Virus record (IMG/VR): IMGVR_UViG_3300020045_003176
Coordinates: 1-55,215 of that record
Source: a virus
Taxonomy: Duplodnaviria; Caudoviricetes
Strand: one strand, 5' to 3'
DNA length: 55,215 nt
In this document: positions 1,929 through 49,113 of the stretch, piece after piece
Layout of the letters: every line of letters starts with the position of its first letter
How positions within the stretch are numbered: position 1 is the stretch's first letter
The notes under the pieces: generated by a model
Database searches by the model: none
What the model saw: only the letters and a program-made list of their open reading frames with translations
Told to the model about the DNA's origin: nothing
Position numbers and translations under genes: made by a program

Positions 1929-3416
1929 ATGAACATAGACGAACTAGACCGCGTATATCAAGGGCCAAACTCCGGGCTAGGCGGCTTATCGTCCATAGCC
2001 GACAATACCAATGTCAGAACGACAGTCCCTAGTCCTTTGGATGGACTCAAAGGTGATCTAGATAAAGCAAGAACGACCGAAGCTAGCGCACTTGAGAGAC
2101 TTCGGAAGTCCTATGAAATTACGCCAGACGAAGAGGCTGCTAATACCGCTAACTTGTGGGGTGTGGCATCCAAAGCGTTGCTATCGGATGAACCTAGAGG
2201 TAGAGGATTTCTTGGTAGCGCATTAGCTGAAATGGGATCAGCCTTTGCAAAGGAAAAGAAATCGCAATTTGAAGCACAACGACAAAACAGAGAGAAGGGC
2301 GATGGTATTGAATATGCGAAAGCTGCGGATAGACTGAAGGCATTGGAAGGCAAGTATGCAGCGGCTATTACCAAGGGGCAGACCGGATCTAGTCAAGCTC
2401 CGTGGATTGTCATTACTGACAAGGATAAGACAAAATATCGCTTCAATAAACTAACCGGCGAGAAGCAACTTATTCCAAGGGATGAAGCGGAACGGTATGA
2501 ATCAGATGTCAAGAAGTATAGCGATTATCTGATTAGAACCGGCGATCCTGATTGGGACGAAAACGCTCATAAACGTGCCGCTCAAGAATCAGCGGCACGC
2601 ATGGCGGCTAGTGGTGGATCATCGGTGCCGTCCGCAATGCCAGCGGGAGGCGCACAAGTAGCATTGAATGGTGGGCAAGATCAGGCCGCATGGGCGAAAC
2701 AATTGGAAGCTGAAGGAAAGACGGCAGATGCGGAAGCGTTACGAGGCGCTTCGCCAGTGGTCACGCCCGTTCAAACACCATTTTTTACCGACAAGCGCGA
2801 TGAAAGGAAAGTAAAAACAGCAAGGGATGTCGCACAAGCACAGCAAGACGTTAAAGATAGTCCGGGGGCGACTAAGGGAGTTGAGGATAGGACTAGGGCT
2901 AAGGCTATCACGTCTGCTGAGGTTAAACAGTCGCTTTCAATGAAGGGAGTGATGGATAATCTTGAAGCTGCCGAAAAGATATTGACGGGTCCGATAGCGC
3001 CAACCGCTAGCGGAATCGGGAAGAAAATCGATAACATTGCTGCTGAGTTTGGTAAGTCTCCAGAAGGAGCAGTTCAAGCCAAAGAGTTGGTGAATATAGC
3101 AGCAGCATTAACCTCAAACGTGCCACGGATGGAAGGCCCACAATCCGATGCTGACCGAACATATTATGCTGAAGTAGCTGGACAATTGGGTGATGCAGGA
3201 ATCCCTGTAGATCAGCGTCTTGCGATGCTTCGTCAGTTCAAAAAGCGCATGTCACACTGGGACGAGAACGGGAAGTGGCATAAGAATCCAGAAGATGCAA
3301 AGAATGCTAATAAGGCAACACCAAGCACGCCTGCCGCTGCGCCAACTGCCAGCAGTGCGAACATAGAGGCTGCTAGAGCGTATTTGGAAGCCAGAAGAAA
3401 GGCTAAGTCGCCATGA
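1929..3416 (+). CDS. putative ejection (internal virion) protein
   Basis: 495 aa, Ala/Lys-rich helical; C-terminal PRMEGPQSDAD motif; second of three tightly packed genes. Confidence 0.55.
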   Translation: MNIDELDRVYQGPNSGLGGLSSIADNTNVRTTVPSPLDGLKGDLDKARTTEASALERLRKSYEITPDEEAANTANLWGVASKALLSDEPRGRGFLGSALAEMGSAFAKEKKSQFEAQRQNREKGDGIEYAKAADRLKALEGKYAAAITKGQTGSSQAPWIVITDKDKTKYRFNKLTGEKQLIPRDEAERYESDVKKYSDYLIRTGDPDWDENAHKRAAQESAARMAASGGSSVPSAMPAGGAQVALNGGQDQAAWAKQLEAEGKTADAEALRGASPVVTPVQTPFFTDKRDERKVKTARDVAQAQQDVKDSPGATKGVEDRTRAKAITSAEVKQSLSMKGVMDNLEAAEKILTGPIAPTASGIGKKIDNIAAEFGKSPEGAVQAKELVNIAAALTSNVPRMEGPQSDADRTYYAEVAGQLGDAGIPVDQRLAMLRQFKKRMSHWDENGKWHKNPEDAKNANKATPSTPAAAPTASSANIEAARAYLEARRKAKSP

Positions 3417-42831: not shown

Positions 42832-43086
42832 ATGATGCAAGGCGATTTAGTAGAGGATCAGGAAACCATCCTGAAAACGACCAGTAAGGCAATGGGATTC
42901 ACCGAGGCATTCAATGCGCTCGACCTATTCCAAAAGGTTAGGCGATCCAACTGGTACAGCGGACGATACCTAATCATTGATGGGGATGACGATCCGGTTA
43001 TCCGGGTGATCGACGGCAAGAACAATTACATGTGGTCCCCGCTTCAAGAGGATTTGTTCGCCAAGAATTGGGAGATTGTGCGATGA
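42832..43086 (+). CDS. tad2: Tad2/DUF2829-like anti-defence sponge protein
   Basis: F.EA..L...KVRR.NW...W.P.QEDLFA.NWE signature; AAGGAG SD. Confidence 0.65.
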   Translation: MMQGDLVEDQETILKTTSKAMGFTEAFNALDLFQKVRRSNWYSGRYLIIDGDDDPVIRVIDGKNNYMWSPLQEDLFAKNWEIVR

Positions 43087-43484
43087 GCCTCGACCAATTC
43101 AAACAGGACAACTTTCCCGAGATTGAACCCGGCTGCAAGCCCTTTGGAGTTGATGTCCTGGTCCAACTAAAGACCACGCAGACGGTATCCAAGGGTGGGA
43201 TCTTCCTCGCTCGTGACACGCAAGAGGCCAACGATGAAAACACGATGGTTGCCAAAGTCATTCAACTTGGGCCGCTTGCCTACCGGAACAGGGACACCGG
43301 CGAACTCTGGCCGGAAGGGGTATGGGCTAACGCCGGGGATATTGTACTTGTACCTAAATGGGGTGGATTTAGATTCGGACGCACGCTACCCAACGGGGAT
43401 AAGGCTAGATTCTGTCTCTTCCAAGATAAAGAGCTTCGGGGTGGCTTGAATGAGCACTTCGAGGGGCTTTTGGAGGTGATATGA
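43083..43484 (+). CDS. GroES-like co-chaperonin
   Basis: P.G..VLV, mobile loop SKGGIFL, V..LGP.AY, W...GD.V. Confidence 0.85.
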   Translation: MSLDQFKQDNFPEIEPGCKPFGVDVLVQLKTTQTVSKGGIFLARDTQEANDENTMVAKVIQLGPLAYRNRDTGELWPEGVWANAGDIVLVPKWGGFRFGRTLPNGDKARFCLFQDKELRGGLNEHFEGLLEVI

Positions 43485-43708: not shown

Positions 43709-44697
43709 GCACTGAAAATGAAGAACTTGAACTCAAAGAACAAGCAGATGGAACGGTCCATGTCACTGACCCCGGCGACAAGGGCGAGACTAACGCCACT
43801 GCCGATGACCAAGACGGCGACGATGAAGAGGGCAGTAGCGGCCAAGATGAAAGAACTTCCAATGTGGAAGCTGGCGATTCTGAGTCTGATGAAGTAAAGA
43901 ACCCCAAGACCGAACAAAACCGACTCCGCAGGGATGCTCGGAAACAAAGAGCACACGACCGTAATGAACGGATGATGTCCGAACTCAAGGCGAGGGACGC
44001 GGTAATCGCTGATCTGACGGCGAGGATTCAACGACAAGAGAGCAAGACGTCCGGTACGGAGATGGTTCATGTCGATGAGGAAATCAGGAAGAGTGCGGAC
44101 GCCTACAACTACTTCAAGAGACAGATAGCGGAAGCCCACGGCAACCCGGACGCCGGGACGATCATGGCCGACGCGACGGAGAAGATGGTACTTGCATCAA
44201 ACCGTTATGCAGATTTGAACCGCGTCAAGAAACAGATGATCGAACGGCAGAACCAGCCTCCGGCGATTGATCCTGTCCTACTTAAGAGGGGCCAGGATTG
44301 GGTCGCCAAGAATCCTTGGTACAACCCGAACGGTGGAGATGAGGACAGCGACATTGCTCTGGTCGTTGATAGAGCGCTCTTGAAAGAAGGCTGGAACGCC
44401 AGAACAACGGAGTATTGGGACGAACTTGATAAAAGGATTGCAAAAAGATTGCCACACAGGTATAAATCCAATTATACTAATGAGAATGATTCTCATTCGC
44501 AACAACGCCCGCGATCCGTCGTCACCGGATCTGGCCGCGAATCGAATGGATCAGGAAACGGAAGTAGCGGATATGTCCTATCCGCAGAACGGGTAGCAGC
44601 GATAAAAGAAGCCGGATTATGGGATTCACCAAAAGACCGCGCTGAAAGTATCAGACGTTATCGTCAATATGACAAAGAACAAGGAGCTACGAAATGA
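43705..44697 (+). CDS. putative scaffolding protein
   Basis: Acidic N-terminus, coiled coil, W..KNPW and EYW.ELDKR motifs; position. Confidence 0.65.
   Translation: MSTENEELELKEQADGTVHVTDPGDKGETNATADDQDGDDEEGSSGQDERTSNVEAGDSESDEVKNPKTEQNRLRRDARKQRAHDRNERMMSELKARDAVIADLTARIQRQESKTSGTEMVHVDEEIRKSADAYNYFKRQIAEAHGNPDAGTIMADATEKMVLASNRYADLNRVKKQMIERQNQPPAIDPVLLKRGQDWVAKNPWYNPNGGDEDSDIALVVDRALLKEGWNARTTEYWDELDKRIAKRLPHRYKSNYTNENDSHSQQRPRSVVTGSGRESNGSGNGSSGYVLSAERVAAIKEAGLWDSPKDRAESIRRYRQYDKEQGATK
44449..44497 (+). promoter_or_regulatory. internal promoter with Fur box 3
   Basis: TTGCCA-N18-TATACT followed at once by AATGAGAATGATTCTCATT (44479-44497). Confidence 0.7.
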
Positions 44698-45257
44698 ATC
44701 GCACTAAGGGCCTTATAGGCGGACAAGATGGGCGTCTGCGTAGGACAAGTGGAGACATATCTCGTAGCGATCCGCTTGGAGAAGATGCCGATCGCTCCAA
44801 AGACGGAACCGCACTAACCCCCGATGAGCGACAAGCACTGTTGCGCCAGGAGTGGGTGCAGAACATCCTCCCCGATATCCCCGCAAAACCCGGCTGGCAT
44901 CGTTGCTGGCTTTCCACCACGAATTCAAATGATCCGATTTACAAGAGGCAACAGATTGGCTACGTGCCGGTCATGATTGCCGACGTTCCCGGTTACGAAA
45001 GTTTCGCCCTCAAAGGTGGAGCATTCGACGGGGCCGTTCATTGTAACGAGATGATCTTGTTTGAAATCCCGATGGAAAGACACATAGACATGATGACCAT
45101 CTATCACCACACCATGCCTAATGAAGAAGAGGGCATGCTGAAGAAATCTCTGGTGCAAGATGCAGAAGACAGCGAAGGTAATGAGTTGGGCGAAGCATTC
45201 GGTGACGGTGTTCAAAATCTAGGCAGAAACAAACGACCTATTTTTGCACACATTTAA
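44694..45257 (+). CDS. conserved head-module protein
   Basis: PG...CW...GY.PV motif; position before the decoration gene. Confidence 0.6.
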   Translation: MNRTKGLIGGQDGRLRRTSGDISRSDPLGEDADRSKDGTALTPDERQALLRQEWVQNILPDIPAKPGWHRCWLSTTNSNDPIYKRQQIGYVPVMIADVPGYESFALKGGAFDGAVHCNEMILFEIPMERHIDMMTIYHHTMPNEEEGMLKKSLVQDAEDSEGNELGEAFGDGVQNLGRNKRPIFAHI

Positions 45258-45266
45258 GGAGTCATC

Positions 45267-45824
45267 ATGAGTTCAACAGCAGCGCCCTACGGCTTTATTG
45301 CCGTTCGGCACCCCAGCGGAAACCTCCGCGCCGATCCTTATCCTATTGGTACTGGTTACGCCACGGCCATAGGTAAAGGTGATGCGGTCATTCTCAACAC
45401 GGACGGAACCCTGAACATCGGGACAGCCACTAACGACATTCTCGGTATCTTCGCGGGTGTTCAATACACCGATGCAAACGGTGTTCCAACCTATTCGCCA
45501 AACTGGGTTGCATCGACCACGGCAACCAATATCGTTGGATGGGTTTATACCGATCCTGCGACGGTGTTCTCTGCTCAGGCAAACGGTTCTCTGGCTGCAA
45601 CGTCTGTAGGCGATCAGTGTGATTTGGTTGCCGGAACAGTCAATGCGACTACCGGACTCTCGACGATGGCTTTGAATTCAACGCCTGAAGGTGCTGGAGT
45701 TCAAGGTCAATTCCGAGTGATTGGACTTGATGGAGCGGTGAATAACGCATGGGGCGATACCTATACCCAAGTGCTTGTTCAGATCGCACAATCGCAGTTC
45801 GTAGCGAATAAGGTAGGAATATAG
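45267..45824 (+). CDS. capsid decoration/cement protein
   Basis: APYGF, I..GD.V, G.F.G..Y, DP..F..Q motifs; upstream of MCP. Confidence 0.7.
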   Translation: MSSTAAPYGFIAVRHPSGNLRADPYPIGTGYATAIGKGDAVILNTDGTLNIGTATNDILGIFAGVQYTDANGVPTYSPNWVASTTATNIVGWVYTDPATVFSAQANGSLAATSVGDQCDLVAGTVNATTGLSTMALNSTPEGAGVQGQFRVIGLDGAVNNAWGDTYTQVLVQIAQSQFVANKVGI

Positions 45825-45853
45825 GTTAGTCATATCCTAAGCGTCTTATTAAT

Positions 45854-46594
45854 ATGCCTTATTACTCATACCTGCAAGCAAGACCTAACCCGCAGAGCGC
45901 GTTTGACGTGTTCTATGTTGGGAAGGGTACGCTTTCTCGTTGCACTGATTTTTCACCACGTAATCCGCATCACGCCAATGTAGTTGCCAAGTACGGCGCA
46001 GAGAATATCCAAGTCGGTAAATTGGAATGTTCAACCGAAGATCTGGCATTTGAGCTTGAAAAAGGACTCATCAAATGTCTGCGCCGGATGGGAGTTGATC
46101 TTACAAACATTGCTGATGGTGGAAAAGGCGGATTCTTGTCTGGGGATCGTCATTTCACACGGACGATGCCAGATAAAGTAAATCGCGGTGAAAAGCACTA
46201 TGCATACGGAAAGCCTTTGAGCGCTGAAAGAAAGAAACAAATCAGCGATCACGGTAAAGCAGGGGCAAGTTATTTCATCAAGAATCCAATCGTCGCTGGT
46301 GAAACTCACCCGATGTACGGACGACATCATAGCGAAGAATCGAAGCAAAAGATGGCTATCGCTAATGCAGGAAAAACACCGTGGAACAAAGGAATCCCTG
46401 GGCCAAGTATCCCTCATTCATGGGAGGCGAAGATGAAAATTTCTTCCGCTAGGGCTGGCGGTAAGTGGATTACAAACGGTGAAGTTAATTCGTTCCTTAG
46501 AAAAGGGGTGGATCTGCCTGATGGATGGAGATACGGGAAGATTAATAAGGCGCTTGCGACAAGACAAGACCTACACAACATAAAGGAAAAATGA
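45854..46594 (+). mobile_element. free-standing GIY-YIG-like homing endonuclease with NUMOD3 repeats
   Basis: YSY...FYVGKG...R...E..LI...LTN..DGG; HPMYGRHHSEESKQKM. Confidence 0.85.
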
Positions 46595-46595
46595 A

Positions 46596-47510
46596 ATGTC
46601 CGGCATAATTTTACGGAGTAGCGACTTCCGCTCAATAGTCGCCCCGATCCTCAATCAAGCCTTTGATGGGATATATGACCAACGAGTCAATGAGTACAAG
46701 AAGGTCTTTTCGGAAGAAACAGGCATTGCCCGTTCCTACCACGAAGAACCCGTCCTGTACGGTTTTGGGTCTGCTCCCATCCTTCCCGATGGGCAGCCCG
46801 TTACGTATGACCAAGGCGGGCAACTGTTCGTCAAGCGTTACACCTACGATGTCTATGGACTGGCTTTTGCCATTACCAAAGTCCTTTACGAAGACGGAGA
46901 CCACATCCGAATCGGCACGACCTACTCCAAACACTTGGGCCAGTCGATGTCTGAAACGATTGAAACGGTCTGTGCAAACCATCTAAACCGTTTCAACAAC
47001 GGCTCTTATACAGGTGGCGACGGTGTAGCACTCTGTTCGACTTCTCACCCTGCCGCATCGGGTGGTAATCAGTCCAACCTTCTGACCGCAGCGGCCTTGT
47101 CCCAGACTTCTCTTGAACAGGCGATGACAACCATTCGTGCCGCAGTGGATTCGCGGGCAAAGAAGATCCGCCTTACCCCTAAGCGTCTGATCGTTGCTCC
47201 GGCGAATATGCTGGTGGCTGAAGTCCTTCTGAACTCGGTTCTTCGTTCAGGAAATGCCAACAACGATATCAACCCGATCAAGTCGATGGGTCTGCTCAGT
47301 GAGGCAGTCACGATGTCGCGTTTGACCTCGACGACCGCCTGGTTCGTGCAAAACGATGTTCAAAACGGCCTCAAGCTGTTGTGGCGTCGGAAACTCGAAA
47401 AGGGCATGGAAGGCGACTTCGAAACTGACTCGGTACGGTACAAATCGACTATGCGTTTTGGGTCGGGGTGGACCGATTGGCGCGATATCTACGGCAACGC
47501 AGGTGCGTAA
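46596..47510 (+). CDS. major capsid protein (HK97 fold)
   Basis: AAGGA SD; GGDGVAL.S.SHP, P..LIV.P, DF.T...YK..R...GW.DWR motifs. Confidence 0.92.
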   Translation: MSGIILRSSDFRSIVAPILNQAFDGIYDQRVNEYKKVFSEETGIARSYHEEPVLYGFGSAPILPDGQPVTYDQGGQLFVKRYTYDVYGLAFAITKVLYEDGDHIRIGTTYSKHLGQSMSETIETVCANHLNRFNNGSYTGGDGVALCSTSHPAASGGNQSNLLTAAALSQTSLEQAMTTIRAAVDSRAKKIRLTPKRLIVAPANMLVAEVLLNSVLRSGNANNDINPIKSMGLLSEAVTMSRLTSTTAWFVQNDVQNGLKLLWRRKLEKGMEGDFETDSVRYKSTMRFGSGWTDWRDIYGNAGA

Positions 47511-47544
47511 ACCCATTGCTCAATTTACTCAAAGGAAATAAATC

Positions 47545-49113
47545 ATGGCATTAACCAATTTTCCTAACGGGGTATCGAGCATGGGTGTTCCGGTCTTGGG
47601 AGGGCAAGTCCCAACCACGACCGGAAACTACTGGTTCGTTGATTCCGCAGGCACTGTCGGAGATGGTACGCAATCTACATCTCCTTTTCTAACCATCGCA
47701 GCGGCTGTTTCTGCGGCTACTGCTAACAACGGTGACATTGTTGTTGTTGCCGCTCGTCATGCTGAAACCATCTCAGGTGCCGCAGGCATTGCTTTCTCCA
47801 AGGCAGGCTTGACGTTCTTCTTCTGTGGTGAGGGGGCGAATCGTCCTACCTTCACCTTGGGGACTTCCACGGCGGCGACCATCACCGTAACCGGCGCGAG
47901 TACCAAATGGACCGGTGCTAAACCGATTATCGTTTGTGCGCTTGACAGCATTGTCAGTTGTATCGTCGTATCGGCGGCTAACTGTACTCTATCCTATGAG
48001 CATCAGGATACGTCAGCGACTGTTGAGGCAGTGACTTCGTTGCTGACCACGGCAGCGGCAGACAACCTGACAGTGGATCTGAAGTATATCGGCTTCCCTG
48101 CAGGTAATGCTTGCGTCGCACCAATCCAGCTAGTTGGATGTAATAACGCGGTCATTAATCTGGACTTCTACGGCCTAGCGAGTACGTCGGTAGTGAATTT
48201 CATCACCCCGGCTAGTTCGAATATCGAAGTATATGGCTACGCTTACAACGCCACGGACACGACTGGCGCCAAGCTGGTCGTGGATACGGTGGGTGGTAGC
48301 ACCTGGTTTGCTAACCTCTACGCTGGAGCCGCAGGCGCGCAGTTCTCTGGCGGATCGGGCGCGGCGATTGCGACTGACGACGTGCAGGCTCTGTTGGCTG
48401 TTCCGACAGCGGACGCTACCACGAACGTCTATGAGCGGGATGTAATCGGTATCAAGACAGATGCAGCGGTGACAGCCGTGGGGACTACCAAGTCCATCAC
48501 GGCTTACGCCAAGGGCTTGGTAACGATGAACACTGTTCAATCGGCGGATGCGACTAACAACGCCTTTGCCGGAGATGTTGTCGGTAACAAGACGGATGCG
48601 GCGGTTACTGAAGTTGGGACTACCAAGTCCTTGGCAGCCTACGCCAAAGGTCTGGTCGGCCAGATGTGGGCCAGCCCGATCTGTGTGGAGAAGGCTGACG
48701 GTGCGGTACTGAGTGGGGATGATCCTATCTTCACCATCTCTGGCGGCCCAGTTCGAATTTTGTCAATTACTGGCATCGTAACAACTCAGATTGGTGCCGG
48801 TACGACAAACGTCAAACTGGAGTTGGACACAACGACCCCATCGGCGACCGTGCAGATGAATGCTGGAGCGGTAGATATCGATGCAGACGCTGCTGGGACT
48901 TCGTATCGTTCCATCAACACCACGGGAATTTTCACACCAATTACCGCTGGATTTGTACTTATCGCCAATGCTTTTGCTGTGCTTGACACAGAGTACCTTG
49001 CCCCAATCGGAACGATTCAGTTTAACTCTGATGCGGCCCGTGCCGGAAACATCAAGTGGTATTTGAGCTACATCCCACTTTCCCCTAACAGCCGAGTCAC
49101 GGCAGCCGCCTAA
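47545..49113 (+). CDS. virion structural protein (head fibre/beta-helix-like) with 45-aa duplication
   Basis: TNFPNG start typical of post-MCP genes; PF.TI..A beta-helix cap. Confidence 0.6.
   Translation: MALTNFPNGVSSMGVPVLGGQVPTTTGNYWFVDSAGTVGDGTQSTSPFLTIAAAVSAATANNGDIVVVAARHAETISGAAGIAFSKAGLTFFFCGEGANRPTFTLGTSTAATITVTGASTKWTGAKPIIVCALDSIVSCIVVSAANCTLSYEHQDTSATVEAVTSLLTTAAADNLTVDLKYIGFPAGNACVAPIQLVGCNNAVINLDFYGLASTSVVNFITPASSNIEVYGYAYNATDTTGAKLVVDTVGGSTWFANLYAGAAGAQFSGGSGAAIATDDVQALLAVPTADATTNVYERDVIGIKTDAAVTAVGTTKSITAYAKGLVTMNTVQSADATNNAFAGDVVGNKTDAAVTEVGTTKSLAAYAKGLVGQMWASPICVEKADGAVLSGDDPIFTISGGPVRILSITGIVTTQIGAGTTNVKLELDTTTPSATVQMNAGAVDIDADAAGTSYRSINTTGIFTPITAGFVLIANAFAVLDTEYLAPIGTIQFNSDAARAGNIKWYLSYIPLSPNSRVTAAA

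What the first reader, a model, noticed from the sequence alone, without database searches (positions are those of the whole stretch)
45822..46598. Homing endonuclease looped out by a long-range RNA helix that rejoins decoration and capsid cistrons
Seen: 45838-53 (TAAGCGTCTTATTAAT, ending at the endonuclease ATG) pairs with 46541-56 (ATTAATAAGGCGCTTG): 16 bp with 2 G-U pairs, so the signal is specific to the mRNA strand. Outer pairs GTC/GAC and TAGGTT(45822-27)/GACCTA(46568-73) put the upstream TAG about 10 nt from the capsid SD (46583). The endonuclease has no SD, and no group I core was seen. Inference: a non-splicing way to hide a ~750-nt selfish insert, which blocks its own initiation and preserves translational coupling, or is excised by RNase III.
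Basis: partly seen in the sequence, partly recalled or inferred. Interest (0 to 1): 0.7.

Follow-up and report, generated by a model that had tools for sequence, protein, structure and literature searches.

The report
Stem-closed homing endonuclease cassette in phage
A selfish endonuclease gene sits between two head genes of an uncultivated phage, and its two ends are predicted to pair as RNA and cover its own start site; this is a plausible but unproven long-range form of a known way of keeping such genes quiet.

Summary
45838-53 pairs with 46541-56 (16 bp, 2 G-U), extended by 11 outer pairs that start at the upstream stop codon. The stem has pair probability 0.85-0.99 in five folding contexts of up to 2.5 kb.

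It encloses a NUMOD3, GIY-YIG-like homing endonuclease gene. That gene is absent from 79 of 79 related phage loci, where the two head genes abut.

A helix of this strength is not rare in the window. Its placement is:
- The start-to-end pairing score is 29, against at most 7.5 for 23 other genes of the window.
- No control among 276 neighbouring genes reaches 20.
- Shuffle tests give p of about 0.001-0.003.

Covariation cannot be tested, because the nearest endonuclease homologue is 41% identical. The stem is not a family trait (0 of 91 other family members reach 20). It is not strand-specific, since the antisense RNA folds the same way. Similar closures occur in 6 of 179 other endonuclease genes, three of them next to group I introns.

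Best reading (0.45): a long-range variant of start-site sequestration. RNase III excision and ribosome hand-over to the capsid gene remain untested.

The parts
45267..45824 (+). Upstream head gene (185 aa), possibly a cement or decoration protein. Its stop codon TAG is at 45822-24.
   Evidence: It is an ORF. It matches phrog_37556, of unknown function, and has no Pfam hit. The nearest named Atlas clusters are phage cement families at scores of 0.81-0.84, which is a lead only. It is syntenic with the gene before the capsid gene in 79 relatives.
45824..46580 (+). Approximate extent of the inserted cassette (about 757 bp). The boundaries are inferred, with TA microhomology.
   Evidence: I compared the two junctions with empty alleles, in which the upstream stop overlaps the capsid SD 13-16 nt before the ATG. 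The boundaries were placed by eye.
45822..45836 (+). Outer 5' strands of the stem: 6 + 3 + 2 pairs, including the upstream stop codon.
   Evidence: Pair probabilities are 0.82-0.99.
45838..45853 (+). 5' arm of the 16-bp core, directly before the endonuclease ATG.
   Evidence: The arm is about 55% unpaired in nascent transcripts and 1-2% unpaired once the 3' arm exists.
45854..46594 (+). Homing endonuclease gene (246 aa): an N-terminal GIY-YIG-like nuclease domain, NUMOD3 repeats and a disordered C-terminal tail.
   Evidence: NUMOD3 scores 54 bits against a cut-off of 20.4. It matches phrog_314, homing endonuclease. Family alignment A1. In the AlphaFold model, residues 1-88 have pLDDT > 92 and residues 231-246 have pLDDT < 50. 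GIY-YIG fold hits are weak.
45857..45863 (+). Weak inner extension of the stem just after the AUG; it pairs with 46530-46537.
   Evidence: Pair probabilities are 0.42-0.64.
46541..46556 (+). 3' arm of the core. It lies inside the endonuclease ORF at codons 230-235, where the non-conserved tail begins.
   Evidence: The closest homologues end about 11 residues earlier. The tail is low-confidence in the model.
46558..46573 (+). Outer 3' strands of the stem.
46583..46589 (+). Shine-Dalgarno region of the capsid gene, inside the last codons of the endonuclease ORF.
   Evidence: Read from the sequence. Predicted unpaired fraction is 0.94 with the stem formed.
46596..47510 (+). Major capsid protein gene. 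Its ATG lies 1 nt after the endonuclease stop TGA (46592-94).
   Evidence: Phage_capsid_4, E 7.5e-13. It is 64-77% identical to capsid genes of 82 loci, including Caulobacter phage RW.

Best explanation
A free-standing homing endonuclease cassette of about 757 bp was inserted exactly at the stop/SD junction between a cement-like head gene and the major capsid gene. In the late polycistronic mRNA, the two ends of the cassette pair over about 720 nt. The stem is interrupted and has 27 strong pairs: a 16-bp core plus 11 outer pairs.

The stem closes the cassette into its own RNA domain and buries the 16 nt in front of its SD-less AUG. De novo initiation on the endonuclease gene would therefore be strongly disfavoured once the 3' arm has been transcribed. 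The endonuclease could then be made only in small amounts, either in the interval before the 3' arm appears or when ribosomes terminating at the upstream stop open the stem base. The capsid ribosome-binding site stays single-stranded.

Shown: the insertion, the complementarity, its thermodynamic dominance in silico and its unusual placement.
Inferred: that the stem forms in vivo and that it lowers endonuclease translation.
For: - Insertion: 79 of 79 related loci that carry both flanking genes have them 13-154 nt apart and have no endonuclease. Their junctions are shown.
- Stem stability: it is in the MFE and centroid folds, and core P is 0.85-0.99 in 5 of 5 contexts.
- Energy cost: forbidding the 3' arm region costs 17.4 kcal/mol of ensemble free energy, and forbidding the 5' arm costs 12.8.
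- Timing: the 5' arm is about 52-57% unpaired in transcripts that end before 46535, and 1-2% unpaired in transcripts that end at 46560 or later.
- Placement within the window: the expected number of start-region bases paired to the end region is 28.97. The other 23 genes of 450-1100 nt in the window score at most 7.51, and 19 of them score <= 0.1.
- Placement against controls: 0 of 276 control genes reach 20 on this measure.
- Shuffle tests: shuffling the leader gives an equal or better duplex in 8 of 3000 trials, and synonymous recoding of the tail in 2 of 3000.
- Room to evolve: the 3' arm lies in a C-terminal tail that homologues lack and that is modelled as disordered, so it is free to evolve as RNA.
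- Other endonuclease genes: start-to-end closures of >= 20 occur in 6 of 179 others against 0 of 276 controls (Fisher p 0.0035). L109 is a clear case: SD and AUG are paired with P about 0.99, and 0 of 1500 shuffles match it.
- Precedent: local hairpins that sequester the RBS are documented for I-TevI, I-TevII, I-TevIII, segB and mobE (PMC2988022, passages read). An RBS held in a long-distance interaction is documented for the MS2 maturation gene (PMC4615214, passages read).
Against: - There is no comparative support for this stem. The nearest homologue is 41% identical, and the protein is seen on this contig only.
- The closure is not a trait of its own family. Of the 91 further loci collected as relatives of the window endonuclease, only L109 reaches 20, and its protein belongs to the classic GIY-YIG family; the highest among the other 90 is 19.
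- Excluding intron-linked cases and the window itself, enrichment among endonuclease genes is only 3 of 176 against 0 of 276 (p 0.058). Two of those three (L203, L204) are AU-rich and fail a shuffle test.
- By plain duplex energy the gene ranks only 5th of 94 ORFs.
- Many equally strong helices exist by chance in the window.
- The antisense strand forms the same stem.
- The AUG itself sits in a 3-nt internal loop (unpaired 0.90).
- Equilibrium folding ignores ribosomes and folding kinetics over 700 nt.
- With the arms blocked, the start region is still only 47-70% unpaired.
Confidence: 0.45

Rival explanations
1. Chance complementarity with no role. The leader and the tail happen to match, and the first reader picked this match out of a 55-kb window.
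For: - My arithmetic expects about 0.7 such 16-bp helices per strand of the window, and 1 was observed.
- There are 7 helices of >= 16 bp and 824 helices scoring at or below the core's -18.3 kcal/mol value on my own stacking-energy scale on the + strand.
- The duplex-energy rank is 5th of 94.
- Control genes reach scores of 12-19 in 9 of 276 cases.
- There is no covariation and no family conservation.
Against: - The placement is extreme: 29 against at most 19 in 276 controls.
- Shuffle tests give p of about 0.001-0.003 for this pre-defined pair of regions.
- The stem falls on the one gene class in the window for which RNA occlusion of the start is already known.
- The stem ends coincide with the insertion boundaries.
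Confidence: 0.2
2. A relic of origin, or a DNA-level inverted repeat. The cassette brought its closing stem from an earlier home, for example the ORF-bearing peripheral loop of a group I intron, or it carries terminal inverted repeats that act in DNA. Either way the stem has no present role in this mRNA.
For: - The stem is equally formable on both strands.
- Both arms lie inside the inserted DNA, near its ends.
- Three of the six other strong closures (L200, L225, L231) sit directly after a full Rfam group I intron match.
- The insertion looks recent, being unique among 79 relatives.
Against: - No intron core is left.
- GIY-YIG homing needs no terminal repeats (established knowledge, recalled).
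- Pairing is best at the inner ends of the arms rather than at the outermost ends, which is unlike transposon inverted repeats.
Confidence: 0.15
3. An RNase III processing stem. The double-stranded stem is cut, which separates the upstream and capsid messages and leaves the endonuclease message without its leader and stop codon. The insert would then be functionally removed at the RNA level.
For: - The stem has 27 strong pairs with small internal loops, including 16 continuous pairs.
- A cut would leave the capsid message with a short, open leader (SD unpaired 0.94).
- Long stems that loop out whole RNAs and are cut by RNase III are established for rRNA operons and for phage T7 (recalled, not from a call).
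Against: - There is no expression or end-mapping data.
- The host and its RNase III preferences are unknown.
- Two searches for papers linking free-standing endonuclease genes to such stems found none.
Confidence: 0.12
4. Restoration of translational coupling. Ribosomes ending at the upstream stop at the stem base are passed across the stem to the capsid SD, 9 nt beyond the other base, as in the empty allele.
For: - The geometry is as described.
- In the closest empty alleles the upstream stop overlaps the capsid SD, 13-16 nt before the ATG.
- L109 has the same layout: stop, 3-15 nt, stem, 15-25 nt, SD.
Against: - I know of no such hand-over in bacteria.
- A terminating ribosome would itself melt the outer pairs.
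- The capsid SD is open in every model, so independent initiation suffices.
Confidence: 0.05

Closest known systems
RBS-sequestering hairpins of phage homing endonuclease genes (I-TevI, I-TevII, I-TevIII, segB, mobE; PMC2988022, passages read)
   Same: - It is an endonuclease gene carried on a long polycistronic phage message.
- The RNA structure covers the translation start region.
- The expected result is very low endonuclease synthesis.
   Different: - The known cases are local hairpins around a consensus SD, bypassed by a late promoter inside the structure.
- Here the partner strand lies 687 nt downstream in the tail of the same ORF.
- There is no SD.
- No promoter-like site was found on the + strand (phage-specific promoters are not covered by that scan).
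Endonuclease ORFs looped out of peripheral helices of group I introns
   Same: A helix closes the whole ORF into a side domain so that the surrounding RNA keeps its layout. I saw this in L200, L225 and L231, next to Rfam intron matches.
   Different: - There is no ribozyme core.
- The insertion is intergenic.
- Nothing needs to be spliced.
Long-distance interaction that holds the RBS of the MS2 maturation gene (PMC4615214, passages read)
   Same: - A non-local pairing occludes the start.
- Translation is expected only before the structure has formed; my in-silico time course agrees.
   Different: - In MS2 the partner is upstream and about 100 nt away, and it is supported by covariation and mutants.
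- Here the partner is downstream and about 700 nt away, and it is untested.
RNase III processing stems that enclose rRNAs or separate T7 messages (recalled)
   Same: A long interrupted double-stranded stem formed by sequences flanking a large looped-out RNA.
   Different: There is no evidence of cleavage, and the continuous stretch is only 16 bp.

Membership tests
Free-standing GIY-YIG / NUMOD3 homing endonuclease gene | NUMOD3 DNA-binding motifs | tested here: met
   PF07460 scores 54 bits against a cut-off of 20.4; 23 of 24 family members match.
Free-standing GIY-YIG / NUMOD3 homing endonuclease gene | GIY-YIG catalytic domain | tested here: inconclusive
   PF01541 finds nothing in the window at E <= 1. 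LEM-3-like GIY-YIG matches weakly in 11 of 24 members, best E 0.0099. A PDB profile search gave 0 hits. The confident N-domain model gives only weak Foldseek hits to UvrC GIY-YIG (TM 0.53), I-TevI (TM 0.50) and a GIY-YIG restriction enzyme, all at E > 0.1.
Free-standing GIY-YIG / NUMOD3 homing endonuclease gene | Present/absent polymorphism at a conserved site between intact genes | tested here: met
   79 of 79 relatives lack it, and the flanking genes are intact.
Free-standing GIY-YIG / NUMOD3 homing endonuclease gene | Cleaves the empty allele near the insertion site | not testable with these tools
   This needs an enzyme assay.
RBS-sequestering regulatory hairpin of phage endonuclease genes | The structure occludes the start region | tested here: met
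   In silico only. Positions -16 to -1 are paired with P 0.91-1.0, and the start region is 28% unpaired. The AUG itself lies in a 3-nt loop.
RBS-sequestering regulatory hairpin of phage endonuclease genes | Local hairpin around a consensus SD | tested here: not met
   The arms are 687 nt apart and there is no SD.
RBS-sequestering regulatory hairpin of phage endonuclease genes | An internal late promoter gives transcripts that lack the inhibitory strand | tested here: inconclusive
   No sigma-70-like site lies on the + strand in 44500-47800. Phage-specific promoters are not covered.
Group I intron carrying an endonuclease ORF | Ribozyme core | tested here: not met
   No Intron_gpI match at E <= 10. 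The same search method finds introns in L200, L222, L225 and L231.
Group I intron carrying an endonuclease ORF | Interrupts a gene that must be spliced | tested here: not met
   The insertion lies between a complete upstream ORF and a complete capsid ORF.
RNase III processing stem | About two turns of double-stranded RNA | tested here: inconclusive
   16 continuous pairs, and 27 pairs in an interrupted stem.
RNase III processing stem | Cleavage within the stem | not testable with these tools
   No sequencing run was listed.
Conserved regulatory RNA structure | Covariation among relatives | not testable with these tools
   There is no relative above 41% identity among 5.8 billion proteins, and none in the viral or metagenome contigs.

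The most novel reading that the evidence does not exclude
The stem acts as a splicing-free 'topological excision' of a selfish gene from an operon message. By closing the insert into a side domain, it restores the spatial neighbourhood of the upstream stop and the capsid ribosome-binding site. Terminating ribosomes might then re-initiate across the stem, as a bacterial analogue of ribosome shunting, or RNase III might physically remove the insert. Free-standing endonuclease cassettes with such closures would also be the raw material from which intron-borne endonuclease loops arise, or the reverse.
Probability: 0.1. Interest if true: 0.8.

Novelty: new variant of a known kind. Interest (0 to 1): 0.45.

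Why it matters
Homing endonuclease genes that land inside essential late operons must avoid harming their carrier. Two ways of doing so are known: splicing (introns, inteins) and local hairpins that silence the endonuclease.

If the helix is functional, a stem that closes the whole free-standing cassette over 0.7 kb would be a third, simple solution. It would also link free-standing and intron-borne endonuclease genes.

The survey here suggests that such closures are a minority feature of endonuclease genes: about 4% at the strict threshold, against 0 of 276 neighbouring genes. It also suggests that each closure arose separately. The idea can be tested with reporters and structure probing.

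Tried and rejected
- **Covariation was impossible.**
  - A protein search gave a nearest homologue at 41% identity.
  - Viral and metagenome scans gave at most 31-45% identity over parts of the protein.
  - L109's own relatives are at most 48% identical.
- **Sequencing runs:** none was listed for 45500-46900, so there was no look at expression, RNA ends or an empty allele in the same population.
- **Family conservation** of the stem was rejected.
- **Plain duplex energy** between start and end windows has little power; the gene ranks 5th of 94.
- **Counting helices** shows the core helix alone is not unusual.
- **Strand specificity from the G-U pairs** was rejected.
- **Overall structuredness of the insert is not special.** Each z-score below rests on only 20 shuffles.
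  - Insert with arms: z = -3.96.
  - Insert without arms: z = -3.05.
  - 821 nt upstream: z = -3.15.
  - Capsid gene: z = -0.41.
- **No + strand promoter- or terminator-like site** lies in 44500-47800.
- **No paralogue of the endonuclease** exists in the contig.
- **An early small sample overstated the closure rate.** It gave 4 of 16 closures in the classic GIY-YIG family. A larger sample gave 2 of 73, both intron-linked.
- **Literature:** five full-text searches found no paper describing a long-range stem that closes a free-standing endonuclease gene. Supplementary files were not seen.
Full report
**What is there**

The window is a 55,215-bp viral contig. Around the finding, all genes lie on the + strand:
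- 45267-45824: a 185-aa gene. It matches phrog_37556, of unknown function, and has no Pfam hit. The nearest named Atlas clusters are phage cement proteins at 0.81-0.84, which is a lead only.
- 45854-46594: a 246-aa gene with NUMOD3 (54 bits, cut-off 20.4) that matches phrog_314, homing endonuclease.
- 46596-47510: the major capsid gene (Phage_capsid_4, E 7.5e-13).

The capsid gene is 64-66% identical in DNA to that of Caulobacter phages RW, KcrB, RLK and GB2A and an uncultured siphovirus. In those records, the gene before the capsid gene abuts it.

**The endonuclease gene is an insertion**

I examined 82 related loci: 2 GenBank records and the 80 best IMG/VR capsid matches out of more than 599. 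Of these, 79 carry both flanking genes; 3 are cut off before the upstream gene. All 79 have the two genes 13-154 nt apart, and none encodes the endonuclease.

In the closest empty alleles the upstream stop overlaps a strong SD 13-16 nt before the capsid ATG. Comparing the two junctions by eye places the insert at about 45824-46580. The upstream stop is rebuilt as TAG. The endonuclease ORF runs through the right junction into the old spacer, where it ends 1 nt before the capsid ATG.

The protein has no paralogue in the contig. Its nearest homologue among 5.8 billion proteins is 41% identical.

Alignment of 24 family members (A1) shows a conserved N-terminal nuclease-like domain, NUMOD3 repeats and a C-terminal P-x-G-W-x-x-G motif. 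The closest homologues stop a few residues after that motif, while the window protein continues for about 17 residues.

An AlphaFold model gives pLDDT > 92 for residues 1-88 and < 50 for residues 231-246. GIY-YIG membership is likely but not shown:
- PF01541 finds nothing.
- LEM-3-like GIY-YIG matches weakly in 11 of 24 members.
- A PDB sequence profile search gave 0 hits.
- Foldseek gives only weak hits to GIY-YIG domains.

**The stem**

In a 1001-nt fold the pairs are as follows:

| 5' strand | 3' strand | Pairs | Probability |
|---|---|---|---|
| 45822-27 | 46568-73 | 6 | 0.82-0.98 |
| 45829-31 | 46563-65 | 3 | 0.99 |
| 45835-36 | 46558-59 | 2 | 0.93-0.96 |
| 45838-53 | 46541-56 | 16 | 0.91-1.0 |
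| 45857-63 | 46530-37 | 7 | 0.42-0.64 |

The AUG sits in a 3-nt internal loop between the 16-bp core and the weak inner pairs.

The stem is in the MFE and centroid structures of the 821-nt fold. It keeps a mean core probability of 0.85-0.99 in five contexts up to 2511 nt, and it is in the MFE in four of those five.

Both arms lie inside the inserted DNA. The 5' base of the stem coincides with the left junction, and the 3' base lies 7-9 nt from the right junction. The 3' arm encodes residues 230-235, exactly where the non-conserved, disordered tail begins.

No Rfam family, and in particular no group I intron, is found.

**Is it more than chance?**

The helix alone is not:
- It is the only 16-bp helix with <= 2 G-U at spans of 100-1500 nt on the + strand, but my arithmetic expects about 0.7.
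- The strand holds 7 uninterrupted helices of >= 16 bp, and 824 scoring at or below the core's -18.3 kcal/mol value on my own stacking-energy scale.
- By duplex energy between start and end windows, the gene ranks 5th of 94 ORFs.

The placement is unusual:
- I scored each gene by the expected number of bases from -40 to +4 of the start that pair with bases from -100 to +24 of the end.
- The endonuclease gene scores 28.97. The other 23 genes of 450-1100 nt in the window score at most 7.51, and 19 of them score <= 0.1.
- Dinucleotide shuffles of the leader equal the real duplex energy in 8 of 3000 trials. Synonymous recoding of the tail does so in 2 of 3000.

- The reverse complement forms 14 of the 16 core pairs at P >= 0.89.
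- Its duplex energy is -31.6 against -30.3 kcal/mol for the sense strand.

**Predicted consequences**

- Forbidding the 3' arm region raises the ensemble free energy by 17.4 kcal/mol; forbidding the 5' arm raises it by 12.8.
- In transcripts that end before 46535, the 5' arm is 52-57% unpaired. Once 46560 is reached it is 1-2% unpaired. Initiation would therefore be easier only while the gene is still being transcribed.
- The capsid SD is unpaired 0.94 with the stem, 0.91 with the 3' arm blocked and 0.66 with the 5' arm blocked. The stem may help the capsid start a little, but it is not needed for it.

**Comparative survey**

The stem itself has no relatives, so I asked whether other endonuclease genes are closed in the same way. 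I applied the same score to each set. In the table, probability sums were used and for the window gene; the other rows are MFE pair counts (the window gene's MFE count is 29). Positives were re-checked by probability sums.

| Set | n | Result |
|---|---|---|
| Window gene | 1 | 28.97 |
| Distant relatives from the viral and metagenome scans | 22 | 21 score <= 2.49; L109 scores 23.07 (MFE count 33) |
| Non-duplicate members of the window's own family | 69 | maximum 19; 6 reach >= 12 |
| Relatives of L109 | 15 | 27, 24, 20, 14 and eleven zeros, one of them a 39-aa fragment |
| Further classic GIY-YIG genes | 73 | 21, 20, 18, 18, then lower; 57 zeros |
| Neighbouring genes of 400-1200 nt (controls) | 23 + 126 + 20 + 107 = 276 | maximum 19 |

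Rows dropped before counting:
- Before, 13 of the 35 candidate loci: 8 as duplicates, truncated or interrupted ORFs, or lacking an ATG, and 5 (L111, L112, L113, L116, L118) because the run stopped at its time limit and was not resumed.
- In some searches: 11, 3 and 7 loci, as duplicates, incomplete ORFs, or ORFs too near a contig end.

Statistics:
- At >= 20: 7 of 180 endonuclease genes against 0 of 276 controls (Fisher p 0.0014).
- Without the window: 6 of 179 (p 0.0035).
- At >= 12: 20 of 180 against 9 of 276 (p 0.0013).

However, L200, L225 and L231 (and L222, which scores 13) lie directly after full-length Rfam group I intron matches. There the closure is the familiar intron helix that loops out the ORF. 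Without those three, the figures are 4 of 177 (p 0.023), and without the window as well, 3 of 176 (p 0.058).

Of the three remaining cases:
- L109 is convincing. SD and AUG are paired at P about 0.99 to a segment 36-58 nt before the stop. No shuffle out of 1500 matches it. It sits between two structural genes, with the same stop-stem-SD layout.
- L203 and L204 are AU-rich and do not pass the shuffle test.

In L109 and its 48%-identical relative L200, the 3' arms lie on opposite sides of the same protein motif. These closures are therefore not inherited from a common ancestor.

Caveats:
- Rfam was run only on 18 positive loci.
- L165 and L166 are near-duplicates but were counted as two.
- The two kinds of score (probability sums and MFE counts) are mixed.

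**Reading**

The data fit a long-range variant of a known theme. Phage endonuclease genes on polycistronic messages are kept quiet by RNA structures over their start (PMC2988022, passages read). An RBS held in a long-distance interaction, and usable only before folding completes, is known from the MS2 maturation gene (PMC4615214, passages read). Endonuclease ORFs in introns are looped out by peripheral helices (PMC2585584, abstract seen in the listing).

I rate start sequestration by cassette closure at 0.45. The rivals are:
- chance, 0.2;
- a relic or DNA-level repeat, 0.15;
- RNase III excision, 0.12;
- ribosome hand-over, 0.05.

None of the functional readings could be tested here. No sequencing run was listed, and no close relative exists.

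Five full-text searches found no description of such a closure around a free-standing endonuclease gene.

Noticed in passing
L109:2345-3084 (metagenome locus): A second free-standing GIY-YIG endonuclease gene lies between two phage structural genes. Its strong SD and AUG (2357-2375) pair at P about 0.99 with 3054-3074, which is 36-58 nt before its own stop. No Rfam intron was found, and 0 of 1500 shuffles match the duplex.
   Followed up: partly
L200:1109-2139, L225:2128-3547, L231:2047-3277, L222:2022-3193: In each locus a full-length Rfam group I intron match lies directly upstream of a GIY-YIG endonuclease ORF. The start region of that ORF pairs with the ORF's own end (scores 27, 21, 20 and 13). 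The ORF therefore appears to sit in a 3'-terminal looped-out helix of the intron.
   Followed up: partly
window 45856-45872 / 46535-46551 and 45914-45926 / 46570-46582: There are alternative long-range complementarities. One is a second register in which the 3' arm pairs with the first codons after the AUG. The other is a 13-nt match between the YVGKG-motif codons and the 13 nt just before the capsid SD. Either could compete with the main stem.
   Followed up: no
window 46061-46079 and 46582-46600: A 19-nt direct repeat (15 of 19 matching) links the codons of the family's invariant LEKGLIKCL motif to the capsid SD/ATG region. It is probably chance.
   Followed up: no
window 47545-49113: A 522-aa ORF after the capsid gene has no Pfam or PHROG match. 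It contains an internal repeat of about 45 aa (a TDAAVT..GTTKS..AYAKGLV motif occurs twice). Strong complementary segments fall inside it: 48508/48635 and 48399/49217.
   Followed up: no
window 43032-43484: This 150-aa ORF is at the position where relatives annotate a GroES-like co-chaperonin (RW gp090c, and 'chaperonin 10 kd subunit' in MW202545). A phage-encoded co-chaperonin upstream of the head genes.
   Followed up: no
L122, L170 and other family loci: Several endonuclease genes of the window's family end exactly on the stop/SD junction of the next gene, with a TAA overlapping AGGAG. This suggests the family repeatedly targets stop/SD/start junctions.
   Followed up: no
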